Of a DNA stretch of 64,000 bases, positions 26,648 through 49,900 are shown piece after piece. Positions within the stretch are counted from its first letter, which is position 1; every line of letters starts with the position of its first letter. Origin of the DNA: Bacteroidales bacterium (GTDB lineage: Bacteria > Bacteroidota > Bacteroidia > Bacteroidales > VadinHA17); assembly GCA_038245405.1 (NCBI GenBank), contig JBBRSO010000001.1:9199-73198 (forward strand), given 5' to 3'. The notes under the pieces are model-generated. The model searched no databases, was not told the origin of the DNA, and saw nothing but the letters and a program-made list of their open reading frames with translations. The translations under genes were made by a program, and so were the position numbers.

Positions 26648-26668
26648 AAGTAAGGCTATATTCAGATA

Positions 26669-26974
26669 TTATGGTTTCCTCTTTTTAAACATCTCCAACA
26701 TCCTGTCAGTTACCACAAAGCCGCCCACAACGTTTAGCGTTCCGAGTACTACTGCCACAAATCCCAGGATCATTGAACCTGTTGTCTCGGCATGACCCAT
26801 CACAATTATTGCCCCGATAATCACAACTCCATGAATTGCATTAGCACCTGACATAAGCGGTGTATGCAAAATAGCAGGAACGTGGCTTATCATTTCAACG
26901 CCAAGAAATATCGACAGGATCACTATGAAGATAATCTCTCTGTGCATTACAAAAAAATTCAGGATATTTTCCAT
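26669..26974 (-). CDS. pntAB: NAD(P) transhydrogenase subunit alpha, membrane part 2
   Basis: 101-aa three-helix membrane protein between pntAA and pntB (SGANAIHG motif). Confidence 0.85.
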   Translation of the reverse strand: MENILNFFVMHREIIFIVILSIFLGVEMISHVPAILHTPLMSGANAIHGVVIIGAIIVMGHAETTGSMILGFVAVVLGTLNVVGGFVVTDRMLEMFKKRKP

Positions 26975-26982
26975 AATTTGAT

Positions 26983-28113: not shown

Positions 28114-28216
28114 AAGTTTAATGTTTGAAGATGAAGTGCCTTTTGCTTCAACAAAATTTGTTAGCAATATAATAAACAATTGCTTTTCTGCATTCAATTA
28201 GATACAAAAATGAAAC

Positions 28217-33057: not shown

Positions 33058-34362
33058 ATGACGGGAAATGGGATAAATGCCAAATCTGTCCGTGAAATCG
33101 GATGGCTTAAACTGGACAACGCAGCCAAACTCTTTCCTGCAATTATGTCGGGCGAACTGACAGCGGTCTTCAGAATAACAGCTAAGCTTAAAAAGCCTAT
33201 AAACTATTCGAATATCAAAGAAGCCGTCGAAATTACTTCAGGCCGCTTTCCATATTTCAGTGTTTCGCTGGGTAGTGGCTTATTCTGGCATTATCTGGAA
33301 TTCAATAACAAAATGCCACGGATTCAGACTGAAGAAAATATACCATGCACAGCATTTGCAGCCAAAAGAAAAAACGAACCTCTTTACAGGATTCTGGTTA
33401 AGGAAAACAGGATTTCTGTTGAATTCTTTCATATACTTACTGATGGCGGGGGAGCATTCGAATATCTCAAGTCGCTTCTTTATACATACCTCACACTGAG
33501 CGGGAATACAATTCGAACCAGTGAAGGGATCATATTACCCGGAAGTCCAATAACCGAAGGAGAATTTGAAGATGGATATAAAAGGTTTTTCAGGAAAAAA
33601 ATACCGCCTCCCGGTAAGCTTACCAAAGCCTGGCACCTGCCATATAGCCTGAATGAAAAACCACGACTGAAAGTTATCGGGGCTGAAATATCCCTTGACA
33701 AGCTTCTGGGAAAAGCACGTGAACATGAGGCATCAGTGACAGAGTTTCTGGTGTCAGTCTATCTGTATACTCTGCAAAAAATTTTCCTGGAGGAAAAAGA
33801 AAATGTAAAAAAACAGAAAACGGGAGTATTACGAATAGAAGTTCCGGTTAACCTGAGGAAAAAGTTTCCGAGTATCACAATGCGTAATTTTTCTCTTTTT
33901 GTGCTCCCGGAACTCGATCTCAGGCTTGGGGAGTACTCTTTTGAAGAGATCCTTAAAATAACAAGGTATCAGCTTCAGACAGGGGCCGATGTAAAACAAA
34001 TCACAAGATTCCTATCACAAAATGTTGGTCACGAGAAGAGCCCTCTTATCAGGGTTCTGCCTCTGTTCATTAAATCACTGGCGATTTCCGCTGTGTACAA
34101 AAGGCTGGGTTCTAATCAGTGTTCAGGGATCCTTACCAATATGGGTGCAATTAAGTTACCACCTGAAATGGAAGAGCTTATTGATTCATTTGAATTAGTG
34201 CCTACTCCGCCGAATACACATGTTAAAGTAACGTGTGCAATGGTAACCTTCAAAAATCATATGCGTATTAGTTTTGGCAATATTTCAAATTCTACAAAAT
34301 TCGAAATGCATTTTTTAAGATATCTCACTGAAGCAGGGATACCTGTAAGGATCCTAAAATAA
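33058..34362 (+). CDS. HxxxD-motif acyltransferase-like protein (condensation / alcohol acetyltransferase-like superfamily)
   Basis: FFHILTDGGGAFEYLKSL carries the HxxxDG catalytic signature of the CAT/condensation/WS-DGAT-like superfamily. Size is about 430 aa. The family assignment is tentative. Confidence 0.45.
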   Translation: MTGNGINAKSVREIGWLKLDNAAKLFPAIMSGELTAVFRITAKLKKPINYSNIKEAVEITSGRFPYFSVSLGSGLFWHYLEFNNKMPRIQTEENIPCTAFAAKRKNEPLYRILVKENRISVEFFHILTDGGGAFEYLKSLLYTYLTLSGNTIRTSEGIILPGSPITEGEFEDGYKRFFRKKIPPPGKLTKAWHLPYSLNEKPRLKVIGAEISLDKLLGKAREHEASVTEFLVSVYLYTLQKIFLEEKENVKKQKTGVLRIEVPVNLRKKFPSITMRNFSLFVLPELDLRLGEYSFEEILKITRYQLQTGADVKQITRFLSQNVGHEKSPLIRVLPLFIKSLAISAVYKRLGSNQCSGILTNMGAIKLPPEMEELIDSFELVPTPPNTHVKVTCAMVTFKNHMRISFGNISNSTKFEMHFLRYLTEAGIPVRILK

Positions 34363-34376
34363 CTAACAAAAGCAAC

Positions 34377-35081
34377 ATGAATAATTGTATAAACTGTGGG
34401 GTAGAGCTCGATGAAACTTTATCATCATGCCCTCTCTGCGGATTTAATATTGGAAATGAAGAACTGGTTGAATCAAATAAAAAGTCAGAGTTCTTTCCTT
34501 CCGACATAATTCTGTTACATAGAAAAGAGACCAGAACCCATATCTGGGAACTGTCAGGCATAATTTCATTTTCAGGAATTATTGTCTGCTCTATTGCAGA
34601 TCTGGTGATTATGAAGAAATTTACCTGGTCGCTATTTGCTGATACTTCCATTATGGCCTCATGGTTAATCCTTACCCTTAGCCTGCTCGCATTCAGAAAG
34701 TATTATATTGTTCTCCCCGGATTTCTGATCACGGTCCTCACAATGTTGTTTCTATTTGATATTTTTTCACCACCCGTCAATTGGTTTTTTGGTCTGGGAT
34801 TACCGTTAACAGTCACTCTTTTTATTGCTGCGAGTATTGTATTAATACTTTGGAAATTCGCTCATTTCAAAGGATTTAATATATTGGCCTTCGCATTTCT
34901 CATCCTGTCGGGGTTTTGTATTATAACGGAAATGTTCATCGATAAATTCCTGTTTAAAAGAGTTGATATCCAGTGGTCAGCAATTGTAGCGGTTTCAATA
35001 CTTCCAATTGCGTTTATACTGTTGTTTGTGCATTACAGGATGAAAAAAGGGAACAGGCTTGATAGCTATTTTCATATGTAG
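34377..35081 (+). CDS. Zinc-ribbon (CxxC...CxxC) N-terminal, multi-pass membrane protein of unknown function
   Basis: The CINCG...CPLCG ribbon is followed by about five hydrophobic helices. It starts 14 nt after the preceding gene. Confidence 0.6.
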   Translation: MNNCINCGVELDETLSSCPLCGFNIGNEELVESNKKSEFFPSDIILLHRKETRTHIWELSGIISFSGIIVCSIADLVIMKKFTWSLFADTSIMASWLILTLSLLAFRKYYIVLPGFLITVLTMLFLFDIFSPPVNWFFGLGLPLTVTLFIAASIVLILWKFAHFKGFNILAFAFLILSGFCIITEMFIDKFLFKRVDIQWSAIVAVSILPIAFILLFVHYRMKKGNRLDSYFHM

Positions 35082-35112
35082 AAAGGCGCAAAGGCGCAAA
35101 GGCTCAAAGGCG
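35082..35112. repeat. Octamer array (AAAGGCGC x ~3.9)
   Basis: The sequence aaaggcgc aaaggcgc aaaggctc aaaggcg begins at the base after the stop codon of 34377-35081. It is the same unit, reverse-complemented, as 44643-44698. Confidence 0.6.
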
Positions 35113-35637: not shown

Positions 35638-35670
35638 TGTTATTATATTCACAATGTTATTTTATTCACA
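35638..35670 (+). promoter_or_regulatory. Tandem direct repeat TGTTATT(A/T)TATTCACA x2, candidate regulator binding site
   Basis: Two 16-mers (35638-35653 and 35655-35670) match at 15/16 positions with a 17-bp period. They abut the putative -7 box. Confidence 0.35.
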
Positions 35671-35679
35671 CTAAATGAT

Positions 35680-35687
35680 TATATTTG
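35680..35687 (+). promoter_or_regulatory. Bacteroidota-type -7 promoter box (TATATTTG) for the 35749-44138 operon
   Basis: Matches the TAnnTTTG consensus, 62 nt upstream of the first ATG, in a ~390-bp AT-rich gap. Confidence 0.4.
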
Positions 35688-35748: not shown

Positions 35749-36093
35749 ATGACAATTAAAGAAATAGCAGAGATTATTGATGGAAGGGTGATTTGTTGTG
35801 AAGAAAGGTTATCTACTTGTGTTGAATATGCTTTCTCATCTGATCTCATGAGTGATGTCCTGACGATAGAAAAAGAAAACATGTTGCTGATAACGGGTCT
35901 GGCAAATGTTCAGACAATAAGAACATCCGAAATGTCCGACATAAATTGCATAATTTTTGCGCGCGACAAAAAAATTGGTAACGAAATGGTGGCTCTTGCT
36001 AAAGAGAATCATATGATATTGGTTGAGAGTCCTCATTCTGTCTTTCACATTTCCGGTGAATTATATAAAGCAGGTATTAAATCGATCTATTAA
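35749..36093 (+). CDS. DRTGG domain protein
   Basis: 114 aa. SSDLMSDVL ... LLITGLAN ... context typical of stand-alone DRTGG proteins. Paralogue at 37887. Confidence 0.75.
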   Translation: MTIKEIAEIIDGRVICCEERLSTCVEYAFSSDLMSDVLTIEKENMLLITGLANVQTIRTSEMSDINCIIFARDKKIGNEMVALAKENHMILVESPHSVFHISGELYKAGIKSIY

Positions 36094-36096
36094 AAT

Positions 36097-36522
36097 ATGC
36101 AATTCAGGCATAAAATATCCGGGGGCGATTTCTCAAAAGCCGGGAATATTGCAAGTTCAGTCAAGAAAATTCTTCATCAGCTGAATATTGACCATTCCAT
36201 CTCAAAACGGATAGTTATTGCCTTGTATGAAGGTGAAGTGAATGTTGTAGCGCACGCATATTCAGGAATAATTGAAGTTGATATAGACGAAGAAAAGATT
36301 GCAACAAAAATATCGGATATAGGTCCGGGGATAGATGACATTGATCAGGCTATGAAAGAAGGATATTCGACAGCGACATCACAGGTAAGAGAAATGGGAT
36401 TTGGTGCAGGAATGGGCTTATCGAATATGAAAAAAAACAGCGACTCAATGACGATCTCGAGCATACCCGGTGAAGGAACGATTGTGGAACTGATAACATA
36501 CATAAAGCCCCATGCAGGATAA
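36097..36522 (+). CDS. GHKL-type ATPase / anti-sigma-factor-like serine kinase (RsbW/SpoIIAB-like)
   Basis: 141 aa. N-box-like EGEVNVVAHAY, G1 DIGPGIDD, G2 GFGAGMGLSNM. No HisKA domain. Confidence 0.75.
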   Translation: MQFRHKISGGDFSKAGNIASSVKKILHQLNIDHSISKRIVIALYEGEVNVVAHAYSGIIEVDIDEEKIATKISDIGPGIDDIDQAMKEGYSTATSQVREMGFGAGMGLSNMKKNSDSMTISSIPGEGTIVELITYIKPHAG

Positions 36523-37900
36523 TACTCAAAATAGAGATTTTCATCATGCATTAACGGTACATGAAGATATATGTATTGGTTGTACTCATTGTATGACGGT
36601 CTGCCCAACACAAGCTATCAGAGTGAGAAACGGAAAAGCCAGTATCATTGCCAACCGTTGTGTCGATTGCGGGGAATGTTATAAAGCCTGTCCTGTTTCC
36701 GCTATAGGTGTAGAGCAGGATGATCTCGATATGATCTTTAATTTCCCGGTTCGCGTAATACTTATACCGAGTGTTCTTATAGGTCAGTTCCCGAGAAAAA
36801 TAATGACTTCAAGTATTTACAATGCGCTGAAGGAAATAGGATTCACGCATATTTATGAAGTGGAGAACAGCGTTGATATGGTTCTGGAAGCAAGCCGCCA
36901 ATACATGCATGAACATAAGGAACGTCCGATGATCTCATCATACTGCCCGGCTATAATACGACTCATCCAGGTGAAATATCCATCACTTGTAGGCAATATC
37001 ATGAAGATCAACCCTCCTATCGATATGTCAGCCATGTATTACAGGGAGAAGCTGAAAGCATCGGGTATCCCTGAAGAACAGATCGGACTCTTTTATGCTA
37101 CACCATGCGCTGCAAAGATAGCCGCTGTTAAAAGTCCGGTTGGCGATACAAAATCAGCGGTAACAGGAGTAATAAATATCGACTTTTTATATAACAGGAT
37201 CTTCAGATTTTTACAGAGGAAGTATAAGGAATCAGAGCCTCCTGTGACAGACGATCTTTTAAGCTCAAGAGGAATACTCTGGAGTCTTACCCGTGGTGAA
37301 GTGATACACTCAAATGGCCGCGCACTGGCAATCGACGGGATAAAGAATGTGAACGAGTTTCTTGAGAATATTAAAAATGAAAAGCTTGATGAGATTGACT
37401 TTCTTGAATTAAGAGCTTGTGATGAAAGCTGTGCCGGCGGTATATTGATAAGCGGGAACAGATTTCTAACTGTTGAGAGGCTTAAAATCAGGGCTGAGGA
37501 ATACAGGAACAGGGAAGATGATAAGGAAAGAAAATTAAAAGATAGATATCTGAGTGTAAATGAACATGGGTTTCTGGGCGACATCGAACCAAGGCCAATG
37601 GGCAAGCTTGATAAAGATTTTTCGACTGCCCTGAAAAAGATGGAGAGACAACGTCGTATAATGTGTTTTTTGCCCGGATTCGATTGTGCTGGTTGCGGCG
37701 CTCCCGACTGTCAGACCCTTTCGGAAGATATAGTACTTGGAAATGCACAGATTTCACATTGTATTTTCATGCAACATCAGATGATAAAACAAAATGTACT
37801 CAACCAGGAACAGGCTACAAGGGTGACTGAAAATATCTGGGGAAAAGAACGATTGGAAAAAAACTGTAATAAATTAGGAGCTGAAGATGAAAATATCTGA
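36512..37900 (+). CDS. [FeFe]-hydrogenase-like Fe-S protein with degenerate H-cluster motifs (putative sensor)
   Basis: Two ferredoxin motifs (CIGCTHCMTVCP, CVDCGECYKACP). H-domain-like motifs ISSYCPA, ATPCAAKIAA and ELRACDESCAGG are collinear with TSCCPGW, MPCLAKKYE and EVMACPGGCIGGG of HydA in this window. C-terminal Cys cluster CFLPGFDCAGCGAPDC. Confidence 0.75.
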   Translation: MQDNTQNRDFHHALTVHEDICIGCTHCMTVCPTQAIRVRNGKASIIANRCVDCGECYKACPVSAIGVEQDDLDMIFNFPVRVILIPSVLIGQFPRKIMTSSIYNALKEIGFTHIYEVENSVDMVLEASRQYMHEHKERPMISSYCPAIIRLIQVKYPSLVGNIMKINPPIDMSAMYYREKLKASGIPEEQIGLFYATPCAAKIAAVKSPVGDTKSAVTGVINIDFLYNRIFRFLQRKYKESEPPVTDDLLSSRGILWSLTRGEVIHSNGRALAIDGIKNVNEFLENIKNEKLDEIDFLELRACDESCAGGILISGNRFLTVERLKIRAEEYRNREDDKERKLKDRYLSVNEHGFLGDIEPRPMGKLDKDFSTALKKMERQRRIMCFLPGFDCAGCGAPDCQTLSEDIVLGNAQISHCIFMQHQMIKQNVLNQEQATRVTENIWGKERLEKNCNKLGAEDENI

Positions 37901-38225
37901 TATTGTTACCGAACTTGAACTGAAAGTTATATCAGGGAATAATGGTCTGTCAAAAGAGATAACCGGAGGCTATGTCTCTGATCTCCTTAGTGATGTAATG
38001 GGTAATGCACAAGAAGGCCACGTATGGATTACCCTTCAGACTCACCAGAATATTATTGCGGTCAGCTCATTAAAGGACATTTCAGCAATTATTATTGTCA
38101 AGGGATTTGTTCCCGAAGCCGATACTGTTGAAAAAAGCAATATTGAGAATATCCCTGTTTTAAGCACAGAACTGGATACCTTCAATATTACGGGAAGGTT
38201 ATTTGAATTATTGAAAAAGGAATGA
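37887..38225 (+). CDS. DRTGG domain protein (second copy)
   Basis: 112 aa. GGYVSDLLSDVMGNA ... IIVKG context parallels 35749-36093. Overlaps the upstream gene by 14 nt. Confidence 0.75.
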   Translation: MKISDIVTELELKVISGNNGLSKEITGGYVSDLLSDVMGNAQEGHVWITLQTHQNIIAVSSLKDISAIIIVKGFVPEADTVEKSNIENIPVLSTELDTFNITGRLFELLKKE

Positions 38226-38962
38226 ATTTTTTTAGGGCTGATCTTCATATTCATACAGTCCTGTCACCATGCGGTGACCTGGACATGAGCCCTGTGAATA
38301 TCGTTTCTGAAGCTGCTCTCAAAGGGCTGGATATCATCGGAATCACCGATCATAATACAACCCGGCACTGCAGTCTGATAAAAAAGCTGGCATCAGAAAA
38401 TGGCATTTATGTGATGCAGGGTGCTGAAATTACAACAAGAGAAGAGGTTCATTGCCTCGCGTTCTTTGAAAATACTGATGAATTAATTGAATTACAGGCA
38501 TTCCTTGATGAGAATCTGCCCGACATTTTAAATGATAGTGATAAATTCGGATATCAGGTACAGGTAGATGAGTCTGACATTGTTGTTTATGAGGAGAAAA
38601 AGCTTCTTATCAACGCGATCTCAAAGACTTTTGAAGAAACAGAAGCCTTCGTTCATAGTCTGAATGGATTGTTTATTCCGGCTCATATTAACAAAACGAA
38701 AAACAGTATCTACAGTCAGCTTGGATTTCTTCCTGCAAAAATGAAAGCCGATGCTCTCGAAATCTCAGATTTACCTTCACCAATTTCCTTTACTGCGGCA
38801 CATCCTGAGATAAAGGCATTTCCTTTAATCAGAAGTTCCGATGCGCATTTCCCCGATCATATAGGCTCAACAACTACCACATTTTATATCAACGAGGCAT
38901 CATTTACAGAAATCAGGCTCGCACTTAAAGGTGAAAACGGCCGAATAGTAATTGCAGAATGA
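38222..38962 (+). CDS. PHP-domain phosphoesterase
   Basis: ADLHIHTVLSPCGD start motif, ITDHNT, and later H/D ligand residues (PAHIN, SSDAH). ATGA overlap with both neighbours. Confidence 0.8.
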   Translation: MNFFRADLHIHTVLSPCGDLDMSPVNIVSEAALKGLDIIGITDHNTTRHCSLIKKLASENGIYVMQGAEITTREEVHCLAFFENTDELIELQAFLDENLPDILNDSDKFGYQVQVDESDIVVYEEKKLLINAISKTFEETEAFVHSLNGLFIPAHINKTKNSIYSQLGFLPAKMKADALEISDLPSPISFTAAHPEIKAFPLIRSSDAHFPDHIGSTTTTFYINEASFTEIRLALKGENGRIVIAE

Positions 38963-39558
38963 AAGAATTGTCACTAAACATACTGGATATAGCTCAGAAC
39001 TCAATAAGGGCTGAAGCAGATGAAATTACCATAGAAATCAGAGAATCGGTACGGGATGATCTTTTCAGAATAACAATAACGGACAATGGTAATGGGATAC
39101 CTGAGGAAGTTATGGCCAATGTTACTGATCCTTTTGTAACAACCCGCACAAAGAGAAGAATGGGTCTGGGGCTTCCATTACTAAAATACCACGCTGAGCT
39201 TGCCGGGGGAAAATTAGAGATCAGCTCTGAGAGTGGAGCCGGAACAGAAGTTGTAGCTGATTTTTCATTCAGGCACTTTGACAGACAGCCGCTTGGAGAT
39301 ATTGTGGGTGTCCTTATTATATTAATCGCATCAAATGAAAAAATCAATTTCAAATATATACACATCACTGAAAAAGGACGGTACAGATTTTGCACACTTG
39401 AAACAAAGGAATATTTGGAAATTGAAACACTAAACGACAGAATTTTACTTGAAGAAATACGTTCTATGATAGTGGAAAATCTTAAAGCAATTAATGCATC
39501 AGATATAAGTACAAAAGAAAGTTGCTATGCGCTTTCTAAGATTCTGAAAAATGAATAA
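38959..39558 (+). CDS. GHKL-type ATPase domain protein (histidine-kinase-like ATPase without HisKA)
   Basis: N-box LDIAQNSIRAEA, G1 DNGNGIPEE, DPFVTTR, G2 GLGLPLLKY. Confidence 0.75.
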   Translation: MKELSLNILDIAQNSIRAEADEITIEIRESVRDDLFRITITDNGNGIPEEVMANVTDPFVTTRTKRRMGLGLPLLKYHAELAGGKLEISSESGAGTEVVADFSFRHFDRQPLGDIVGVLIILIASNEKINFKYIHITEKGRYRFCTLETKEYLEIETLNDRILLEEIRSMIVENLKAINASDISTKESCYALSKILKNE

Positions 39559-39624: not shown

Positions 39625-40026
39625 ATGTCAAAAATCACGTCACTCGCGGACCTGAAGAAGAAACGCGAAGAATTAAAAACCGGGTTGGACATCCGGGTTA
39701 AAGCCAATGATCCTGACAAACTGGTTCAGGTAAAAGTTGCTATGGCAACTTGCGGCATAGCCTCTGGCGCCAAGACCGTCATGGAATTTTTCCTGGAACA
39801 GCTTGACAGGAGGAATGTAGCGGCTGTTGTAACGCAAACCGGCTGTATGGGTTACTGCTATGCAGAACCGACAATTGAAGTAAAGCTTCCCGGGCAGGAG
39901 CCTGTGGTATTTGGTTTTGTCGATCTGAAAAGGGCCGACCAGATAATTGAGAAATACATTAAAACAGGTGAACTGGTGGATGGTATCATTCCTGTTAATT
40001 ATCAAACTATTGACTTAAAAGAATAA
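39625..40026 (+). CDS. hndB: Thioredoxin-like [2Fe-2S] ferredoxin subunit (HndB-like)
   Basis: 133 aa. Cys pattern MATCGIASGA ... TGCMGYCYAEP. Lies immediately upstream of the NuoF-like subunit. Confidence 0.8.
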   Translation: MSKITSLADLKKKREELKTGLDIRVKANDPDKLVQVKVAMATCGIASGAKTVMEFFLEQLDRRNVAAVVTQTGCMGYCYAEPTIEVKLPGQEPVVFGFVDLKRADQIIEKYIKTGELVDGIIPVNYQTIDLKE

Positions 40027-40038
40027 GGAGGAAAAAGT

Positions 40039-41832
40039 ATGTCAAAATACAGTATGCATCTTCTGGTTTGCGGTGGCACAGGTTGCCATGCTTCAGAAAG
40101 CGATGCTATTGTCTGCAATTTAAGAGATGAGCTCGAAGCAAAAGGCCTCATGGATACTGTCCAGGTTATAATGACAGGATGTTTTGGTTTTTGTGAAAAA
40201 GGGCCAATCGTGAAAGTTATGCCTGACAATACATTCTATGTACAGGTAAAACCCGAAGATGCGCAGACGATCGTTGAAGAACATGTAATTAAAGGAAGAA
40301 AAGTAACAAGGCTTTTATATAAAGACCCAACAACTAAAGAATCAATTTCCGATTCAAAACATATGGGCTTTTTCAAAAAGCAGATGAGAATAGTTCTTCG
40401 CAATTGCGGATTTATTAATCCCGAAAACATCGATGAATATATTGCTCGTGACGGTTATCAGGCATTGGGTAAAGTTTTGTCGGAAATGACTCCTGAGGAA
40501 GTTATTAAGGAAGTCAAAGATTCAGGTCAGAGAGGACGTGGCGGAGCAGGATTTTCAACAGGATTGAAATGGGAACTTGCACGTAAGAATCAGTCGGATG
40601 AGAAGTATGTTGTCTGCAACGCTGATGAAGGTGATCCCGGAGCATTCATGGACCGTTCAGTGCTTGAAGGTGATCCACATTCAGTACTTGAGGCAATGGC
40701 CATTTGCGGATACAGTATCGGCGCTTCAAACGGACTGATCTATATTCGCGCTGAATATCCGCTTGCTATTGCCAGATTGAAAATAGCAATCAACCAGGCA
40801 AGGGAATATGGCTTGCTTGGCAATGATATCATGGGAACTGGTTTCAACTTCGATATAAAGCTTCGTTTTGGAGCCGGTGCATTCGTGTGCGGTGAAGAAA
40901 CAGCGCTTATTCATTCGATGGAAGGTCTTCGCGGAGAACCGACAGTTAAACCTCCATTCCCGGCAGAAGCAGGTTTTCTTGGCAAGCCTACCAACGTAAA
41001 TAATGTTGAGACTTTCGCTGCAATACCTGCAATTATTCTTAAAGGAGCAAAATGGTTCAGCAGTATTGGTACTGAAAAATCAAAAGGCACAAAGGTATTT
41101 GCACTCGCAGGAAAAATCAACAATGTTGGTCTCATAGAAGTTCCTATGGGAACCACACTGAGAGAGGTGATTTTCGAGATTGGCGGTGGAATAAGGGATG
41201 GTAAAAAATTCAAAGGAATTCAAACCGGAGGACCTTCAGGTGGTTGTCTTTCTGAAAAACATCTCGATACACCTATCGACTTTGATAACCTTATTGCAGC
41301 CGGTTCAATTATGGGTTCAGGTGCAATGATCGTTCTCGATGAAGATGATTGTATGGTATCTATGGCGAAATTTTTCCTTGAATTCACTGTTGAAGAGTCA
41401 TGCGGAAAATGTGCGCCTTGCAGAATCGGAAACAAAAGGCTGCATGAGCTTCTTGGCCAGATCTGCGAAGGGAAAGGCAAAATGGAAGACCTCGACAGAC
41501 TGAAGAATATGAGTATTGTGATAAAAGATACATCACTCTGCGGTCTTGGACAGACTTCACCAAACCCTGTACTTTCAATGATGGATAACTATTACGATGA
41601 ATATGTGGCGCATGTGAGAGATAAGAAATGTCCCGCAGGCCAATGCAAGAGCCTGATGGAATATATCGTCAACATTGAAAACTGTGTAGGTTGCACAGCA
41701 TGCGCAAGAGTTTGTCCTGTGAATGCGATCTCCGGTGAAAGAAAAGAGGTTCATCATATTGATCCTTCTGTATGCATAAAATGTGGTGCCTGCATGGAGA
41801 AATGTAAGTTTGATGCAATATTTATCAATTAA
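40039..41832 (+). CDS. hndC: NAD(P)H-binding flavoprotein subunit of [FeFe]-hydrogenase (NuoF-like; HydB/HndC)
   Basis: N-terminal thioredoxin-like 2Fe-2S (VCGGTGCHA...GCFGFCEKGP). FMN/NADH site GRGGAGFSTGLKW, CNADEGDPGAF. N3 cluster ESCGKCAPCR. Two C-terminal ferredoxin motifs (CVGCTACARVCP, CIKCGACMEKC). Confidence 0.92.
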   Translation: MSKYSMHLLVCGGTGCHASESDAIVCNLRDELEAKGLMDTVQVIMTGCFGFCEKGPIVKVMPDNTFYVQVKPEDAQTIVEEHVIKGRKVTRLLYKDPTTKESISDSKHMGFFKKQMRIVLRNCGFINPENIDEYIARDGYQALGKVLSEMTPEEVIKEVKDSGQRGRGGAGFSTGLKWELARKNQSDEKYVVCNADEGDPGAFMDRSVLEGDPHSVLEAMAICGYSIGASNGLIYIRAEYPLAIARLKIAINQAREYGLLGNDIMGTGFNFDIKLRFGAGAFVCGEETALIHSMEGLRGEPTVKPPFPAEAGFLGKPTNVNNVETFAAIPAIILKGAKWFSSIGTEKSKGTKVFALAGKINNVGLIEVPMGTTLREVIFEIGGGIRDGKKFKGIQTGGPSGGCLSEKHLDTPIDFDNLIAAGSIMGSGAMIVLDEDDCMVSMAKFFLEFTVEESCGKCAPCRIGNKRLHELLGQICEGKGKMEDLDRLKNMSIVIKDTSLCGLGQTSPNPVLSMMDNYYDEYVAHVRDKKCPAGQCKSLMEYIVNIENCVGCTACARVCPVNAISGERKEVHHIDPSVCIKCGACMEKCKFDAIFIN

Positions 41833-41843
41833 CGAATAGAAGA

Positions 41844-43622
41844 ATGGAAACGATAAAGCTTACGATTGATAATAAAGAGATTGATGTACCAAAAGGTACT
41901 ACAATATATAAAGCTGCAAAAGAGCTGGGAATTGAAATCCCAACCTTATGCTATATGGAGTTGCACGATATGAATATTGAAAACAAACCTGCAGGTTGCA
42001 GGATTTGTGTTGCAGAAGTTTCAGGAAGAAGAAACCTTGCTCCTTCATGTTCAACGAATTGCGAACCCGGAATGGTTGTGAAAACACACACCCCAAGAGT
42101 GCTGAACGCAAGAAGAACTGTAATGGAATTTATACTTTCCGACCATCCAAAGGATTGTCTGATCTGTTCCAAATCGGGTAATTGCGAACTTCAGGATATG
42201 GCTCACAAGCTTGGTATCAGAGAAATTCCCGGTACAGAGTATGCTGCAACATCAACATACAGAATGGATACTTCGCCTTCGATCATCAGAAACCTCGACA
42301 AATGTATTATGTGCCGTCGTTGCGAGATGATGTGTAATGATGTGCAGACTGTCGGCGCTATTTCTGCTGTTAACAGAGGCTTCATGGCTACAGTTGCTCC
42401 TGCTTTTGAACAGAACCTTGAGCATTCTACATGTACTTACTGCGGTCAGTGCGTGTCGGTTTGCCCCACAGGCGCTCTTACTGAAGTAAACCATGTTCCT
42501 CAGGTGCTCAGAGCACTTGTTGATCCTACAAAGACTGTAATAGTACAAACCGCGCCTGCTGTTCGTGCTGCTCTGGGTGAAGAATTCGGAATGGCTCCGG
42601 GAACACTTGTCACGGGAAAGATGACCGCTGCACTTAGAGCATTAGGCTTTGACTATGTATTCGATACCGACTTTGCAGCCGACCTTACCATTATGGAAGA
42701 AGGCACAGAGCTACTTGACAGGCTCAGCAGACACCTCAAAGGCGATACAACTGCTAAGATTCCAATTCTGACATCATGCTGCCCGGGATGGGTTAACTTC
42801 TTTGAAGAGTACTTCCCCGATTTGAAAGATGTCCCTTCAACTGCAAAATCACCTCAGCAGATGTTCGGCGCTATCGCAAAAACATACTTTGCCGACAAGA
42901 TTGGCGTAAATAGAAAAGATCTGGTTGTAGTTTCAATTATGCCATGTCTTGCCAAAAAATATGAATGCCAGAGGGATGAGTTTTCAGTTGACGGTAATCC
43001 TGATGTTGATTTTTCAATTTCTACCAGAGAACTGGCTTCATTCATCAAACAGGCGAATATTGATATCAAAACACTTCATGATGAAGAGTTTGATTCACCT
43101 ATGGGCGAATCAACCGGTGCCGGAGTTATTTTTGGTACAACGGGTGGTGTTATTGAAGCAGCTTGCCGCACAGCATATGAACTCTATACAGGCAAAAAGC
43201 TTGAAAGGCTCGACTTCACAGAACTCAGAGGGATGGAAGGTGTCCGTTCAGCAACTATCGATTTCGATGGACTTCCTGTAAAAATTGGTATTGCACATGG
43301 TTTAGGAAATGCAAGAAAATTGCTTAATGACGTCAGAGAAGGCAAATCACAATTTCATGCTATTGAAGTCATGGCCTGCCCCGGAGGATGTATTGGTGGC
43401 GGCGGACAGCCACTGCACCATGGAAACTCTGAGATCCTTAAAGCACGTTCTGCCGCAATATATGCGGAAGACAAGAAAAAACCCCTCAGGAAATCACACG
43501 AGAATCCTTTTATTATAAAGCTGTATGACGAGTTTCTCGGCAAGCCGGGAAGTGAAAAAGCACATCATTTGCTTCACACAGAATACTTTGACAAACAGAA
43601 AAAGGTCGTAATTAAAAAATAG
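41844..43622 (+). CDS. hydA: [FeFe]-hydrogenase catalytic subunit (group A, M3-type)
   Basis: N-terminal 2Fe-2S. His-ligated cluster HPKDCLICSKSGNCELQ. Two 4Fe-4S motifs (CIMCRRCEMMC, CTYCGQCVSVCP). All three H-cluster motifs are intact: TSCCPGW, MPCLAKKYE, EVMACPGGCIGGGGQP. Confidence 0.95.
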   Translation: METIKLTIDNKEIDVPKGTTIYKAAKELGIEIPTLCYMELHDMNIENKPAGCRICVAEVSGRRNLAPSCSTNCEPGMVVKTHTPRVLNARRTVMEFILSDHPKDCLICSKSGNCELQDMAHKLGIREIPGTEYAATSTYRMDTSPSIIRNLDKCIMCRRCEMMCNDVQTVGAISAVNRGFMATVAPAFEQNLEHSTCTYCGQCVSVCPTGALTEVNHVPQVLRALVDPTKTVIVQTAPAVRAALGEEFGMAPGTLVTGKMTAALRALGFDYVFDTDFAADLTIMEEGTELLDRLSRHLKGDTTAKIPILTSCCPGWVNFFEEYFPDLKDVPSTAKSPQQMFGAIAKTYFADKIGVNRKDLVVVSIMPCLAKKYECQRDEFSVDGNPDVDFSISTRELASFIKQANIDIKTLHDEEFDSPMGESTGAGVIFGTTGGVIEAACRTAYELYTGKKLERLDFTELRGMEGVRSATIDFDGLPVKIGIAHGLGNARKLLNDVREGKSQFHAIEVMACPGGCIGGGGQPLHHGNSEILKARSAAIYAEDKKKPLRKSHENPFIIKLYDEFLGKPGSEKAHHLLHTEYFDKQKKVVIKK

Positions 43623-43655: not shown

Positions 43656-44138
43656 ATGTCTCATATAAAAATAGAATTAAGAAAAGATGATGTGGACTTT
43701 ATAAAAGGAGTATGCACTACTTTTAATAATGATCCCCAGGAACTCATAAATGTCCTCCATTCATGTCAGGAGCACTTCGGATATCTTCCGGCAGAAATAC
43801 AGGAAGTTGTTTCAGAGGGACTCAACATGCCCGTCGCAAAGGTATATGGAGTAGTAACCTTCTATTCATTCTTCACAATGACTCCAAAAGGCAAACACCC
43901 TATAAGTATTTGCCTGGGAACAGCATGCTATGTAAGAGGTGCTGAAAAAGTTCTCGACGAGTTTAAAAAAGAACTTGGAATACAGGTAGGTCAGTCAACA
44001 ACTGATAACAAATTTTCATTGTCAAGCCTCAGATGCGTTGGCGCATGCGGACTGGCACCTGTTGTGCTTGTTGGCGAAAAGACTTACGGAAGGGTTGCCC
44101 CTGACGATGTCAAAAACATACTTAAAGAATACGAATAG
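43656..44138 (+). CDS. hndA: NuoE-like [2Fe-2S] subunit of the hydrogenase (HydC/HndA)
   Basis: 160 aa. CLGTACYVRGA ... LRCVGACGLAP, typical of the NuoE/HoxE family. Confidence 0.9.
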   Translation: MSHIKIELRKDDVDFIKGVCTTFNNDPQELINVLHSCQEHFGYLPAEIQEVVSEGLNMPVAKVYGVVTFYSFFTMTPKGKHPISICLGTACYVRGAEKVLDEFKKELGIQVGQSTTDNKFSLSSLRCVGACGLAPVVLVGEKTYGRVAPDDVKNILKEYE

Positions 44139-44213: not shown

Positions 44214-44246
44214 AAACCGGGATGAGTTTTCTTCCCGGTTTTTTTT
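44214..44246 (+). terminator. Rho-independent terminator of the hydrogenase operon
   Basis: AAACCGGGA / TCCCGGTTT 9-bp stem, 10-nt loop, then a T8 run. Confidence 0.7.
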
Positions 44247-44304
44247 GGTCATGCCAAGGTGTGGCCAATAATGAAGAAAACCAAAACTTTCTTAGATTTA
44301 CACC

Positions 44305-49525: not shown

Positions 49526-49531
49526 TGTATA

Positions 49532-49885: not shown

Positions 49886-49900
49886 TGTGGTTATAATATT

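What the first reader, a model, noticed from the sequence alone, without database searches (positions are those of the whole stretch)
35749..39558. Six-gene DRTGG / GHKL-ATPase / PHP / hydrogenase-like module fused into the hydrogenase operon: a candidate H2- or redox-sensing phospho-relay with no DNA-binding output
Six ORFs precede the hydrogenase structural genes: DRTGG (114 aa), RsbW-like GHKL ATPase (141 aa), a hydrogenase paralogue (462 aa), DRTGG (112 aa), a PHP phosphoesterase (246 aa) and a second GHKL ATPase (199 aa). They are packed with gaps or overlaps of +3, -11, -14, -4 and -4 nt. A 66-nt gap then leads to hndB-hndC-hydA-hndA, and there is one terminator at 44214. The composition suggests two (small domain + serine-kinase-like ATPase) pairs plus one phosphatase-like enzyme plus one Fe-S sensor candidate. 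That layout formally resembles partner-switching modules (STAS + RsbW/SpoIIAB + PP2C), but with DRTGG in place of STAS and PHP in place of PP2C. No HisKA, receiver, HTH or sigma-factor domain is present in the operon. Any output would therefore have to be post-translational, possibly on the hydrogenase itself, or act through a factor encoded elsewhere. From memory, similar blocks sit next to bifurcating [FeFe]-hydrogenase operons in Clostridia and Thermotogae, but I know of no biochemical description of how they work. Finding one in a Bacteroidota-like context is additionally unusual.
Basis: partly seen in the sequence, partly recalled or inferred. Interest (0 to 1): 0.78.

Follow-up and report, generated by a model that had tools for sequence, protein, structure and literature searches.

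The report
Hydrogen-sensor signalling cassette before a hydrogenase
Six small genes in front of a hydrogenase operon in an uncultured Bacteroidales bacterium form a widely conserved, undescribed signalling cassette around a known "sensory" hydrogenase, and they are the best candidates for that sensor's long-sought partners.

Summary
In detail: the six ORFs, their spacing, every domain call and the terminator are as described.

- **Hydrogenase paralogue.** It is a group D (M2e) "putative sensory" [FeFe]-hydrogenase. That family has been characterised in vitro (TamHydS), but its signalling partners are stated to be unknown as of 2026.
- **Conservation.** The ten-gene order holds in 57 of 60 related Bacteroidota genomes with enough flank, so Bacteroidota is a normal host. 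It recurs in Clostridia with informative variants:
  - DRTGG fused to the SpoIIAB-like kinase, in at least 120 protein clusters.
  - The cassette in front of a [NiFe] NuoEF-type hydrogenase.
  - A hydrogenase-free cassette followed by a CheY-like receiver.
- **Enzymes.** Catalytic motifs are invariant in both GHKL ATPases and in the PHP esterase.
- **DRTGG proteins.** The two are paralogues that share invariant Ser35 and Thr49.
- **New here.** Two tandem Rex-type operators lie about 100 nt upstream. They are about 108-fold enriched at that position across relatives, and rex lies next to the cassette in several genomes.

My reading is an H2-sensing cassette that resembles partner-switching. I consider the regulatory role likely and the phosphotransfer steps only inferred. 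It is a new variant of a known kind, with interest about 0.62.

The parts
35638..35653 (+). Rex-type operator 1 (TGTTATTATATTCACA)
   Evidence: Pattern TGTTA-N6-TNACA has only 2 matches in the 64-kb window, both at this spot. It is an invariant block in a 9-species alignment of otherwise diverged upstream DNA. It matches the published Rex boxes TTGTTAA-N4-TTAACAA (PMC5886521).
35655..35670 (+). Rex-type operator 2 (TGTTATTTTATTCACA), in 17-nt register with operator 1
   Evidence: The tandem pair is present in 38 of 74 related loci, and at least one site in 53 of 74. Site starts lie a median of 105 nt upstream of the DRTGG1 start. Density is 4.55 sites per kb there against 0.042 per kb elsewhere in the same loci.
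35680..35687 (+). Candidate Bacteroidota -7 promoter element TATATTTG (consensus TAnnTTTG)
   Evidence: Read directly from the sequence. The TA..TTTG block is invariant in alignment A6. Its promoter function is inferred from established knowledge of Bacteroidota promoters.
35749..36093 (+). DRTGG1, 114 aa; partner or N-terminal module of the SpoIIAB-like kinase
   Evidence: Pfam DRTGG. Invariant S31 D32 L33 S35 D36, T49 G50, Q55, R58 T59, E61, R72, K74. It is fused to GHKL1 in at least 120 protein clusters. In the window it lies in the same reading frame as GHKL1, separated by one stop codon and one further codon.
36097..36522 (+). GHKL1, 141 aa; SpoIIAB/RsbW-type GHKL protein, a predicted Ser/Thr kinase
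   Evidence: HATPase_c_2. TIGR01925 SpoIIAB is the best NCBIfam hit but is below its cut-off. The orthologous domain in the fusion model matches SpoIIAB with TM 0.84. Invariant: N-box E45/E47/N49/H53, G1 D74xGxG78, R98 and G2 G101-L108.
36512..37900 (+). Group D (M2e) putative sensory [FeFe]-hydrogenase (HydS type), 462 aa
   Evidence: 2x Fer4, Fe_hyd_lg_C and PF04060, with no PAS domain. Mapped onto CpI: C299->Y144, C300=C145, M353->T197, C355=C199, M497->R301, C499=C303, C503=C307. The C-terminal motif is C392x2C395x4C400x16C417. All 16 cluster cysteines are invariant in 63 diverse relatives.
37887..38225 (+). DRTGG2, 112 aa; free-standing paralogue of DRTGG1 and candidate phospho-acceptor or switch protein
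   Evidence: Pfam DRTGG. 25% identical to DRTGG1, E = 9e-9. Invariant Y29 D32 L34 S35 V37 W47 T49 Q51 H53 N55. It always sits directly before the PHP gene, including after rearrangements (L074; L088).
38222..38962 (+). PHP-family metal-dependent phosphoesterase, 246 aa
   Evidence: Pfam PHP. The full metal-site set is invariant: D7 H9 H11 D43 H44 E69 H77 H155 D207 H209, together with S15 P16 C17. Nearest relatives are EndoQ (5zb8, 5.9e-8), TrlF, Ppl, TIGR00375 and pAp phosphatase.
38959..39558 (+). GHKL2, 199 aa; orphan histidine-kinase-type CA domain (about residues 1-100) plus an uncharacterised C-terminal domain of about 95 aa; no DHp/HisKA
   Evidence: HATPase_c at 65.5 bits. The profile matches the CA domains of KinB, ZraS and YycG over residues 8-100 only. 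N, G1, F, G2 and G3 boxes are invariant. The C-terminal part has no Pfam or PDB match. It corresponds to the "histidine kinase" gene annotated in Firmicute hydrogenase operons, such as Cthe_0339 (PMC3990059).
39625..40026 (+). HndB/HydD-like small thioredoxin-like ferredoxin-fold subunit, 133 aa (only three Cys)
   Evidence: Weak NCBIfam 2Fe-2S ferredoxin hits and a weak PF01257 hit. Position is conserved in all loci.
40039..41832 (+). HydB/HndC (NuoF-like flavoprotein with an N-terminal 2Fe-2S and a C-terminal 2x[4Fe-4S]), 597 aa
   Evidence: Complex1_51K, NADH_4Fe-4S, Fer4 and 2Fe-2S_thioredx.
41844..43622 (+). HydA, catalytic group A NADH-linked/bifurcating-type [FeFe]-hydrogenase, 592 aa
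   Evidence: NF040763 at 896 bits, above its cut-off of 765. Fe_hyd_lg_C at 318 bits plus Fe_hyd_SSU.
43656..44138 (+). HydC/HndA (NuoE-like), 160 aa
   Evidence: 2Fe-2S_thioredx at 170 bits.
44214..44247 (+). Intrinsic terminator (9-bp G+C-rich stem followed by a T-run)
   Evidence: Sequence. Folds at -16.2 kcal/mol, z = -3.94, with 0 of 200 shuffles as stable.

Best explanation
The six genes encode a portable signal-transduction cassette built around a group D (M2e) sensory [FeFe]-hydrogenase. It adds H2 sensing to a hydrogenase operon whose transcription is probably already set by the NADH/NAD+ sensor Rex.

**Proposed mechanism**
1. HydS binds H2 at an H-cluster whose proton relay is disabled (Tyr for Cys299, Thr for Met353, Arg for Met497). 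It therefore reports H2 instead of turning it over quickly.
2. HydS is coupled to the SpoIIAB-like kinase GHKL1. The DRTGG1 module of that kinase is a separate protein here and is fused to it in many Firmicutes.
3. Depending on the state of HydS, GHKL1 phosphorylates a DRTGG protein. The most likely target is free-standing DRTGG2, at invariant Ser35 or Thr49.
4. The PHP esterase encoded next to DRTGG2 removes the phosphate.
5. The phosphorylation state of DRTGG2 decides which partner is bound or released. The candidates are GHKL1, the orphan CA-domain ATPase GHKL2, or Rex. The output is either post-translational control of the NuoEF-type hydrogenase or relief or reinforcement of Rex repression.

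**Shown here**
- Family identities, intact catalytic motifs, synteny, gene fusions, portability of the cassette, and the Rex-type operators.

**Taken from the literature**
- Group D enzymes have low turnover and high H2 affinity, and H2 induces structural change in them.

**Inferred only**
- Every protein-protein contact, every phosphotransfer step and the identity of the output.
For: **HydS is group D**
- The architecture and motifs match those defined by Land et al. 2020.
- The field treats the family as sensory and states that its partners are unknown.

**The cassette is a functional unit**
- Gene order is kept in 70 of 72 loci for the six genes and in 57 of 60 for all ten, across Bacteroidota loci down to 48% HydS identity.
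- The same genes occur in Clostridia-type loci L082-L089.
- Rearrangements keep two sub-blocks intact: DRTGG1-GHKL1-HydS and DRTGG2-PHP(-GHKL2). See L074 and L088.

**DRTGG1 and GHKL1 work together**
- They occur as natural fusions in at least 120 clusters at 90% identity.
- The AF2 model of the fusion has pLDDT 89 and pTM 0.78, with a disordered linker at residues 114-127.

**GHKL1 looks like an anti-sigma-type Ser kinase**
- By fold it matches SpoIIAB (TM 0.84), RsbW and UsfX.
- The catalytic Glu and Asn, G1 and G2 are invariant.

**Candidate acceptor sites**
- Ser35 (motif DL[LM]S[DW]V) and Thr49 are the only hydroxyl residues invariant across DRTGG1, DRTGG2 and the fusions in both phyla.
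- In the model, Ser35 sits where a strand (27-30) leads into a helix (34-39).
- The solved DRTGG structures that matched aligned only from profile position 42 or 64 onward, so this motif appears specific to the subfamily.

**Active enzymes**
- The PHP metal site is fully invariant.
- GHKL2 keeps all its ATP-binding boxes.

**Regulatory rather than catalytic**
- The cassette also precedes a [NiFe] NuoEF-type hydrogenase.
- It also exists without any hydrogenase, followed by a single-domain receiver.
- Its proteins evolve 2 to 3.5 times faster than the hydrogenase subunits. They co-vary with each other more than with NuoE or HndB (exploratory).

**Rex layer**
- Tandem operators are conserved and about 108-fold enriched upstream of DRTGG1.
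- rex is adjacent in L053, L065, L067, L079 and L081.
- rex overlaps the start of the fusion gene by 4 nt in L085 and L087.
Against: - No phosphorylation, binding or H2 response was or could be tested here.
- DRTGG is not homologous to STAS. It is known elsewhere only as a regulatory or dimerisation module beside nucleotide-binding CBS domains.
- In Koleobacter a CBS domain lies on the same polypeptide N-terminal to GHKL1, with CBS and DRTGG fragments just upstream across an IS insertion. That favours a ligand-sensing role for this end of the kinase.
- A kinase fused to its own substrate is atypical for partner-switching.
- The nearest relatives of the PHP protein act on nucleic acids or nucleotides (EndoQ, TrlF, Ppl, pAp phosphatase, RNase RNM). 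No CpsB-type protein-phosphatase similarity was seen.
- GHKL2 lacks any DHp or His-containing domain. Its nearly conserved His106 is Asn or Ser in 5 of 24 sequences, so its substrate is unknown.
- GHKL2 is absent from some cassettes (L083, L084).
- In TamHydS the C-terminal cluster does not change redox state under H2 (PMC13104023), so even the sensing step is unresolved.
- I could not inspect the model's inter-domain interface, because coordinates are not returned.
Confidence: 0.5

Rival explanations
1. **Metabolite-gated kinase.** The DRTGG modules are small-molecule sensors (adenylate, energy charge or phosphorylated metabolites), as in CBS-DRTGG regulatory inserts. They are not phospho-acceptors. 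GHKL1 integrates that signal with the state of HydS and phosphorylates something else, such as HydS, a hydrogenase subunit (HndB or NuoE) or Rex. PHP reverses the modification.
For: - Koleobacter carries a CBS-GHKL1 fusion, with DRTGG and CBS fragments upstream.
- DRTGG is fused N-terminally to the kinase, like an input domain.
- DRTGG1 has invariant basic residues R58, R72 and K74 that would suit a phosphate-bearing ligand.
- By fold, the DRTGG part matches the CBS-pyrophosphatase regulatory region and the N-terminal domain of HPr kinase.
Against: - It does not explain the second, free-standing DRTGG paralogue, which is always paired with the PHP gene and lacks the basic triad.
- No ligand is known for any DRTGG domain.
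- Characterised SpoIIAB-type kinases phosphorylate a small partner protein encoded beside them (established knowledge).
Confidence: 0.2
2. **ATP-dependent accessory or repair machinery.** HydS and the two GHKL ATPases help to assemble, reductively activate or protect the NuoEF-type hydrogenase. Alternatively HydS is a low-rate auxiliary catalytic or electron-input subunit. On this reading the cassette does not signal.
For: - The cassette is co-transcribed with, and tightly linked to, the structural genes.
- In Clostridia GHKL2 is embedded between NuoE and HndB.
- TamHydS retains reversible, slow catalysis (PMC8163306).
Against: - The same accessory proteins occur with a [NiFe] enzyme that has a different active site and different maturation.
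- They also occur with no hydrogenase at all, followed by a receiver domain.
- A five-gene cassette stands alone in Acetivibrio saccincola.
- GHKL1 is structurally an anti-sigma-type kinase, not a chaperone-type GHKL.
- From memory of published purifications, HydABC(D) enzymes do not contain these proteins. I did not check this here.
- The cassette proteins evolve much faster than the subunits.
Confidence: 0.1
3. **Nucleotide-signal module.** The PHP enzyme degrades a nucleotide or oligonucleotide signal such as pAp, a cyclic or linear dinucleotide, or a short RNA. The DRTGG proteins are its receptors. Phosphoprotein chemistry is not involved.
For: - The best PHP matches are EndoQ, TrlF, Ppl, TIGR00375, 3',5'-nucleoside bisphosphate phosphatase and RNase RNM.
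- DRTGG domains are associated with nucleotide-binding CBS modules elsewhere.
Against: - The cassette has no cyclase or synthetase for such a signal.
- It contains two ATP-binding kinase-type proteins with intact catalytic residues.
- PHP similarity scores are low and confined to the common fold. All NCBIfam hits are far below their cut-offs.
Confidence: 0.08
4. **Rex explains the regulation.** The operon is simply a Rex-regulon member controlled by NADH/NAD+. The six genes add nothing regulatory and are conserved passengers.
For: - Conserved tandem Rex-type operators lie at the promoter.
- rex is adjacent in several relatives.
- Rex is known to control bifurcating hydrogenase operons in Firmicutes (PMC8579813, PMC5886521).
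Against: - Six genes with invariant catalytic residues are kept in order across two phyla, in more than 80 species.
- The cassette keeps its composition when it is moved to other hydrogenases or to a receiver.
- Rex control and the cassette can operate together.
Confidence: 0.04

Closest known systems
Group D (M2e) putative sensory [FeFe]-hydrogenase, e.g. TamHydS of Thermoanaerobacter mathranii (PMC8163306, PMC11803613, PMC13104023)
   Same: - ORF3 has the same architecture: 2x[4Fe-4S], an H-domain, a C-terminal Cx2Cx4Cx16C motif and no PAS domain.
- There is no Cys at the CpI-299 position and a hydroxyl residue at CpI-353.
- It is encoded upstream of a multimeric NuoEF-type [FeFe]-hydrogenase and next to a histidine-kinase-like ATPase.
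   Different: - The Bacteroidota clade has Phe or Tyr (not Ala) at position 299 and Arg (not Leu) at position 497.
- The published work treats the enzyme alone. The DRTGG, PHP and second GHKL partners, the fusions and the hydrogenase-free cassette are not described.
- TamHydS is reported to be flanked by an AraC regulator, which is absent here.
Group C sensory [FeFe]-hydrogenase systems: R. albus HydS and Thermoanaerobacterium HfsABCD (PMC5707799, PMC11837493)
   Same: - A hydrogenase-like sensor is co-encoded with kinase and phosphatase-type proteins and with a catalytic hydrogenase.
- Genetics in Thermoanaerobacterium shows a regulatory rather than a catalytic role.
   Different: [quoted passage not shown]
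- Here there is no PAS domain. The partners are DRTGG, a SpoIIAB-like GHKL protein, PHP and an orphan CA domain.
Partner-switching modules (SpoIIAA/SpoIIAB/SpoIIE; RsbR-S-T-X and RsbU-V-W)
   Same: - A small SpoIIAB/RsbW-type GHKL kinase with an intact active site.
- Two paralogous small partner proteins, each with a conserved Ser.
- A dedicated phosphoesterase and two GHKL proteins, with tight operon coupling.
   Different: - There is no STAS domain; DRTGG, an unrelated fold, takes its place.
- There is no PP2C; PHP takes its place.
- There is no sigma factor.
- One partner is often fused to the kinase.
- The input is an Fe-S/H-cluster protein.
Regulatory [NiFe]-hydrogenase system HoxBC-HoxJ-HoxA of Cupriavidus necator (described in PMC5707799)
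   Same: The logic is the same: a slow, H2-binding hydrogenase homologue controls a kinase that governs hydrogenase genes.
   Different: - None of the components are homologous.
- HoxJ is a PAS-containing histidine kinase and HoxA is a response regulator.
- Here there is no DHp domain and, in this operon, no receiver.
Rex (NADH/NAD+-sensing repressor) regulon of hydrogenase operons (PMC8579813, PMC5886521)
   Same: - The two upstream sites match the Rex-box consensus and sit at the promoter.
- rex genes lie beside the cassette in some relatives.
   Different: - Rex explains transcriptional control by NADH, not the function of the six genes.
- Rex binding to these Bacteroidota sites is untested.
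- In my paper searches I found no description of a Bacteroidota Rex regulon that includes this operon.

Membership tests
Group D (M2e) [FeFe]-hydrogenase | H-domain with the four H-cluster cysteines (CpI C300, C355, C499, C503) | tested here: met
   C145, C199, C303 and C307 by alignment to CpI. All are invariant in 63 relatives.
Group D (M2e) [FeFe]-hydrogenase | N-terminal 2x[4Fe-4S] domain and C-terminal Cx2Cx4Cx16C motif | tested here: met
   Fer4 x2 and PF04060. C392-x2-C395-x4-C400-x16-C417 read from the translation. All are invariant.
Group D (M2e) [FeFe]-hydrogenase | No PAS domain (the feature that distinguishes it from group C/M2f) | tested here: met
   No PAS hit in Pfam or NCBIfam. 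At 462 aa the protein ends about 45 residues after the last Cys.
Group D (M2e) [FeFe]-hydrogenase | Proton-relay Cys299 absent; Met353 replaced by Ser or Thr | tested here: met
   Y144 and T197. Across the family position 299 is never Cys, and position 353 is T or S in 54 of 63 sequences.
Group D (M2e) [FeFe]-hydrogenase | Phylogenetic placement within the group D clade | tested here: inconclusive
   No tree with reference group A, B, C and D sequences was built. Placement rests on motifs and on 318 related 50%-identity clusters with E < 1e-30 that share the architecture.
Group D (M2e) [FeFe]-hydrogenase | Low-turnover, high-affinity H2 chemistry | not testable with these tools
   Known only for TamHydS (PMC8163306).
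Partner-switching module (SpoIIAB/RsbW type) | GHKL Ser/Thr kinase of the HATPase_c_2 family with catalytic Glu, Asn, G1 and G2 | tested here: met
Partner-switching module (SpoIIAB/RsbW type) | STAS-domain antagonist carrying the phosphorylated Ser | tested here: not met
   No STAS domain anywhere in the operon. The small partners are DRTGG domains.
Partner-switching module (SpoIIAB/RsbW type) | PP2C-type phosphatase | tested here: not met
   The only phosphoesterase is a PHP protein.
Partner-switching module (SpoIIAB/RsbW type) | Sequestered output protein (sigma factor or equivalent) | tested here: not met
   There is no sigma factor in the operon. An ECF sigma gene at 49901-50461 lies 5.7 kb away on the other strand and is absent from that position in the relative L001. 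Rex is only a hypothesis.
Two-component system | DHp/HisKA domain with a phospho-accepting His, attached to the CA domain | tested here: not met
   The GHKL2 profile matches CA domains only, over residues 8-100. There is no HisKA hit.
Two-component system | Receiver domain | tested here: not met
   None in this operon. A single-domain receiver follows GHKL2 only in the hydrogenase-free variant.
Rex regulon | Rex-box operator at the promoter | tested here: met
   Two sites at 35638-35670, conserved and enriched across relatives. They fit the published Rex boxes.
Rex regulon | A rex gene in the genome and Rex binding to the sites | not testable with these tools
   No rex gene was found in the window, whose stop-to-stop ORFs of at least 80 aa were included in the phmmer search. 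rex lies next to the operon in 6-7 related Bacteroidota loci. Binding is untested.
Anti-phage defence system (considered because of the PHP hits to Ppl and TrlF) | Match to a defence-system protein model and a defence-island context | tested here: not met
   The only hit is a weak PHP-domain match to Ppl (26.6 bits). The other four proteins have no PADLOC hit. The context is a conserved metabolic operon.

The most novel reading that the evidence does not exclude
The DRTGG / SpoIIAB-like kinase / DRTGG / PHP / orphan-CA-domain set is a previously undescribed, portable phospho-switch. It resembles partner-switching but uses different folds for the antagonist and the phosphatase. It takes a group D hydrogenase as an H2 input in most lineages. 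It has been plugged into both [FeFe] and [NiFe] electron-bifurcating hydrogenases, and in one lineage into a CheY-like receiver. One specific version is that the SpoIIAB-like kinase acts as an "anti-Rex" factor, so that H2 and NADH signals converge on one repressor.
Probability: 0.35. Interest if true: 0.8.

Novelty: new variant of a known kind. Interest (0 to 1): 0.62.

Why it matters
H2 partial pressure steers fermentation balances, syntrophy and methane output in guts, sediments and digesters. How anaerobes that use [FeFe]-hydrogenases sense H2 is still not known.

Group D enzymes have been studied spectroscopically since 2020. The latest paper (2026) rules out one proposed sensing mechanism and says that finding the interaction partners is the critical next step.

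This analysis names the likely partners and defines which are core and which are optional. It also gives testable sites (Ser35 and Thr49 of the DRTGG proteins, and the PHP metal site). Three further facts constrain any model: the natural fusions, a hydrogenase-free version with a receiver, and the link to Rex.

If the switch works as proposed, it would also be a new way to build a partner-switching circuit. It could become a handle for engineering H2 or ethanol yield in thermophilic Clostridia.

Tried and rejected
A 16-sequence alignment worked, but only the 80 best loci were kept and all of them were Bacteroidota. The phylum distribution of the 597 or more confirmed hits is therefore unknown.
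- **Structure of GHKL2.**
  - The single-sequence model has pLDDT 43 and is unusable.
  - The C-terminal domain therefore remains unidentified. Pfam at E up to 10 and a PDB profile search also found nothing for it.
- **The DRTGG::GHKL1 fusion model** is confident, but no coordinates or PAE are returned. I could not see whether Ser35 faces the ATP site.
- **PDB profile search with the DRTGG alignment.** The printed alignments were taken up by designed "Pizza" repeat proteins. The real hits (3l2b, 1ko7, 2ioj) cover only the C-terminal two thirds.
- **Rfam** found no family anywhere in the window.
- **The sigma-70 promoter scan** was uninformative, with 30 sites against 26 expected. It also missed the terminator, whose loop is longer than the scan allows.
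- **A defence-system reading** was rejected.
- **The ECF sigma factor at 49901-50461** was rejected as the kinase's partner. It is distant, on the opposite strand, and absent from that position in the relative L001.
- **The mirror-tree analysis** is exploratory only. The pairs are not independent and no significance test was made.
- **hfsABCD** was considered as "already known" and rejected. It is a group C/PAS system with a serine phosphatase homologue.

Full report
**1. Observation**

Every domain call passes Pfam's curated cut-off:
- DRTGG for ORF1 and ORF4.
- HATPase_c_2 for ORF2.
- Two Fer4, Fe_hyd_lg_C and PF04060 for ORF3.
- PHP for ORF5.
- HATPase_c for ORF6.

The genes downstream are, in order:
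- a HndB-like small protein;
- a NuoF-like flavoprotein;
- HydA, at 896 bits against a cut-off of 765 for the NADH-dependent [FeFe]-hydrogenase model;
- a NuoE-like protein.

A hairpin and T-run at 44214-44247 fold at -16.2 kcal/mol with z = -3.9. No HisKA, receiver, HTH or sigma domain is present in the operon. DRTGG1 and GHKL1 share a reading frame and are separated only by a stop codon and one further codon (coordinates).

**2. The hydrogenase paralogue belongs to a named family**

Alignment to Clostridium pasteurianum CpI gives these equivalences.

| CpI position | Role | ORF3 |
|---|---|---|
| C299 | proton relay | Y144 |
| C300 | H-cluster ligand | C145 |
| M353 | second sphere | T197 |
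| C355 | H-cluster ligand | C199 |
| M497 | second sphere | R301 |
| C499, C503 | H-cluster ligands | C303, C307 |

The C-terminus reads C392-x2-C395-x4-C400-x16-C417. Land et al. 2020 give exactly these features for the M2e subclass, group D:
- two N-terminal [4Fe-4S] motifs;
- a Cx2Cx4Cx16C tail;
- no PAS domain;
- no Cys at position 299;
- a hydroxyl residue at position 353;
- a location on the same operon as a group A hydrogenase.

In 63 diverse relatives all 16 cluster cysteines are invariant. Position 299 is never Cys, and position 353 is Thr or Ser in 54 of them. The family is large, with 318 clusters at 50% identity and E < 1e-30.

The Bacteroidota clade is a distinct variant. It has Phe or Tyr at position 299 and Arg at position 497, where TamHydS has Ala and Leu.

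The literature calls group D "putatively sensory" because of its low turnover, high H2 affinity and CO tolerance. The 2026 paper finds that the C-terminal cluster does not respond to H2, and it states that identifying the interaction partners is critical. [quoted passage not shown]

**3. Conservation and anatomy of the block**

A scan of one genome per species found at least 597 genomes that encode a relative. The 80 best were all Bacteroidota. They include Bacteroidales MAGs, Anaerophaga, Thermophagus, Carboxylicivirga, Labilibaculum, Ancylomarina, Sunxiuqinia, Saccharicrinis and Lentimicrobium.

Searching the ORFs of those loci with the ten window proteins gave the following:
- the six-gene order in 70 of 72 loci with enough flank;
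- the ten-gene order in 57 of 60;
- both down to 48% HydS identity.

The exceptions are informative. In L074 the order is DRTGG2-PHP-GHKL2 and then DRTGG1-GHKL1-HydS, with the structural genes transcribed divergently.

Clostridia-type loci show these arrangements:
- Koleobacter, a Thermoanaerobacterales MAG, Thermovenabulum and L089 have (rex)-DRTGG/GHKL1-HydS-DRTGG2-PHP-NuoE-GHKL2-HndB-NuoF-HydA.
- L084 lacks GHKL2.
- Acetivibrio saccincola has the five-gene core alone, with no hydrogenase nearby.
- In L088 four sugar-metabolism genes split DRTGG1-GHKL1-HydS from DRTGG2-PHP-NuoE-GHKL2.

The unit is therefore a five-gene core made of two sub-blocks. GHKL2 sits at the border with the structural genes. 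It is the "histidine kinase" long annotated, and ignored, in Firmicute hydrogenase operons such as Cthe_0339.

**4. Variants that bear on function**

*(a) Fusion.* DRTGG1 and GHKL1 form one polypeptide of about 270 aa in at least 120 clusters at 90% identity. These include Thermosediminibacter, Caldanaerovirga, Thermovenabulum and Tepidanaerobacteraceae. Koleobacter instead has a CBS-GHKL1 fusion, with DRTGG and CBS fragments upstream of an IS insertion.

*(b) A [NiFe] host.* In L086 the cassette (fusion-HydS-DRTGG2-PHP-GHKL2) precedes this gene series:
- NuoE;
- HndB;
- NuoF;
- a NuoG-like protein;
- an MvhD-like protein;
- the [NiFe] small subunit;
- the [NiFe] large subunit.

This is the layout of the bifurcating NiFe-HydABCSL enzyme (PMC8880783, listed).

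*(c) No hydrogenase at all.* Two related contigs carry fusion-DRTGG2-PHP-GHKL2 followed by a 123-aa single-domain receiver, with neither HydS nor any hydrogenase.

Together these variants show that the four accessory proteins form a self-contained device. It can take different inputs and serve different outputs. That is the behaviour of a signalling cassette, not of enzyme subunits or maturases.

**5. The parts**

*GHKL1.* The best NCBIfam hit is SpoIIAB, below its cut-off. The AF2 model of the fusion has pLDDT 89.1 and pTM 0.78, with a disordered linker at residues 114-127.
- Its GHKL half superposes on SpoIIAB with TM 0.84 and rmsd 2.2 A, and also on RsbW and UsfX.
- Its DRTGG half superposes on AF1212, on the CBS-pyrophosphatase regulatory region and on the N-terminal domain of HPr kinase.
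- Glu45 (four residues before Asn49, the position of the SpoIIAB catalytic base), Asn49, His53, D74xGxG78, Arg98 and G101-L108 are invariant.

*DRTGG1 and DRTGG2.* They are paralogues at 25% identity, E = 9e-9.
- Across both families, the fusions and both phyla, the only invariant positions are D32, L33, S35, V37 and T49.
- Ser35 lies in the motif DL[LM]S[DW]V, where a strand leads into a helix in the model.
- The solved DRTGG structures that matched aligned only from profile position 42 or 64 onward. The motif therefore appears specific to this subfamily.

*PHP.* All canonical metal ligands are invariant, as is an S15-P16-C17 motif. Its nearest relatives are EndoQ, TrlF, Ppl, TIGR00375, pAp phosphatase and RNase RNM. 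All are distant.

*GHKL2.* It is a minimal histidine-kinase CA domain with N, G1, F, G2 and G3 boxes invariant over residues 8-100. An uncharacterised domain of about 95 aa follows. It has no DHp domain. The His in its H-x-D-R-x-P-L-G-D motif is not invariant.

*Rates of change.* The cassette proteins evolve 2 to 3.5 times faster than the hydrogenase subunits. In an exploratory mirror-tree analysis they co-vary with each other more than with HndB or NuoE. For example GHKL1-HydS is 0.45 and GHKL1-DRTGG2 is 0.42, whereas GHKL2-NuoE is -0.01.

**6.

Aligning the upstream DNA of nine species showed one invariant block in otherwise diverged sequence. It consists of two tandem 16-mers, TGTTATTATATTCACA (35638-35653) and TGTTATTTTATTCACA (35655-35670). 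A TAnnTTTG promoter element follows at 35680-35687.

- The pattern TGTTA-N6-TNACA occurs only at these two places in the 64-kb window.
- Among related loci, 53 of 74 have at least one site within 300 nt upstream of DRTGG1, and 38 of 74 have the tandem pair in 17-nt register.
- The median distance is 105 nt.
- Density is 4.55 sites per kb there against 0.042 per kb elsewhere in the same loci.
- The same palindrome precedes the second trimeric hydrogenase in many loci. In Firmicutes it precedes rex, DRTGG1 or NuoE.
- It fits the Rex boxes listed for T. saccharolyticum, TTGTTAA-N4-TTAACAA.
- rex homologues lie directly upstream of the cassette in Bacteroidota loci L053, L065, L067, L079 and L081.
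- rex overlaps the start of the fusion gene by 4 nt in L085 and L087.
- No rex gene is in this window.

The operon is thus very probably a Rex-regulon member. That covers transcriptional control by NADH. It does not explain the six genes.

**7. Most likely mechanism and its rivals**

*Best explanation (confidence about 0.5).* This is an H2-sensing phospho-switch that resembles partner-switching.
1. HydS reports H2.
2. HydS controls the SpoIIAB-like kinase GHKL1, which is recruited or regulated through its DRTGG1 module.
3. GHKL1 phosphorylates DRTGG2 at Ser35 or Thr49.
4. PHP resets the switch.
5. The state of DRTGG2 determines what GHKL1, GHKL2 or Rex do to hydrogenase activity or expression.

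I rate the general claim that the cassette is regulatory rather than catalytic at about 0.8. Each step of the specific phosphotransfer scheme is inference.

*Rivals.*
- DRTGG as a metabolite sensor, with the kinase acting on another target: 0.2.
- An ATP-dependent accessory or repair role: 0.1.
- A nucleotide-signal module centred on PHP: 0.08.
- Rex explains everything: 0.04.

*Main weaknesses of the preferred model.*
- The kinase is fused to its supposed substrate family.
- Koleobacter has the CBS-containing variant.
- The PHP protein has nuclease- or nucleotidase-like relatives.
- GHKL2 has no known substrate.

**8. Comparison with known systems, and novelty**

- ORF3 is a member of group D. 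All sequence-level criteria are met, and only a formal tree and the biochemistry are untested.
- The cassette is not a member of the partner-switching family. STAS, PP2C and a sigma factor were tested for and are absent. It may still work like one.
- It is not a two-component system, because it has no DHp domain and no receiver.
- It is not the group C Hfs/HydS system, which has a PAS domain and a serine phosphatase homologue.
- It is not a defence system.

My full-text searches found no paper that links DRTGG or PHP proteins to hydrogenases, and none that discusses partner-switching in connection with HydS.

What is new is the definition of the cassette and its variants, not the existence of the genes. 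They are annotated in hundreds of genomes. I rate it a new variant of a known kind, with interest 0.62.

Noticed in passing
window 35638-35670 and 35680-35687: Two tandem Rex-box-like palindromes lie just upstream of a TAnnTTTG promoter element. They are conserved and about 108-fold enriched at this position in related loci. No rex gene is in the window.
   Followed up: yes
L082 17010-19380; L085 17537-19350: Just downstream of the Firmicute hydrogenase operons lies a protein of about 870 aa. It combines Fer4, Fe_hyd_lg_C, PF04060 FeS, PAS and a sigma-54 activator AAA+ domain. It looks like a one-component, hydrogenase-domain enhancer-binding protein, so the same locus holds a second kind of putative H2 sensor.
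   Followed up: no
contigs of P0509 and P0490 (no DNA held): A hydrogenase-free version of the cassette: DRTGG::GHKL1 fusion, DRTGG2, PHP, GHKL2, then a 123-aa single-domain receiver. It lies next to genes for glucokinase, an FAD-binding protein and DUF2148.
   Followed up: partly
L086 6685-18831: The cassette sits between HdrC/B/A-like genes and a [NiFe] NuoEF-type hydrogenase (NuoE, HndB, NuoF, NuoG-like, MvhD, small and large subunits). The sensor is an [FeFe]-type protein while the enzyme it accompanies is [NiFe].
   Followed up: partly
L017, L019, L022, L026, L028 and others, about 1-9 kb upstream of the cassette: A second NuoE-NuoF-HydA gene set with a short NuoF lies near the cassette in 23 of 80 related loci, nearly always upstream of it. 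Many of these sets are preceded by the same Rex-like boxes. Some loci also have an ORF of about 620 aa that matches HydS weakly. This second set is absent from the window.
   Followed up: partly
window 35082-35111 (+) and 44656-44701 (-): Short tandem AAAGGCNC octamer repeats occur on both sides of the operon region: 6 matches against 0.11 expected. The downstream copies lie inside the 3' end of the radical-SAM gene and encode a repetitive Lys/Arg-rich tail.
   Followed up: partly
window 33058-35081: Two ORFs (434 aa; and 234 aa with an N-terminal Cys-rich motif and hydrophobic segments) have no Pfam match. They lie between the S9 peptidase gene and the operon in a low-GC stretch (0.35). The related locus L001 has the peptidase directly upstream instead, so this may be an insertion.
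   Followed up: partly
window 25214-28197 (-): PntAB-type NAD(P) transhydrogenase genes lie a few kb upstream, as they do in L001. This is another redox-balancing function kept near the operon.
   Followed up: no
window 39625-40026: The HndB-like subunit has only three cysteines (C43, C74, C78), where thioredoxin-like [2Fe-2S] proteins have four. Whether it binds a cluster is doubtful.
   Followed up: no
window 36512-37900, residues 144 and 301: The Bacteroidota clade of group D enzymes has Phe or Tyr at the proton-relay position (82 of 86) and Arg at the Met497 position (82 of 86). TamHydS has Ala and Leu. No second-sphere variant of this kind has been characterised in the papers I read.
   Followed up: partly
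window 49040-50461 (-): An ECF sigma factor gene (186 aa) is followed by a 161-aa ORF with no Pfam match, possibly its anti-sigma factor. It appears unrelated to the cassette.
   Followed up: partly
window 16468-25191 (+): A very long ORF of 2907 aa, which I did not examine.
   Followed up: no
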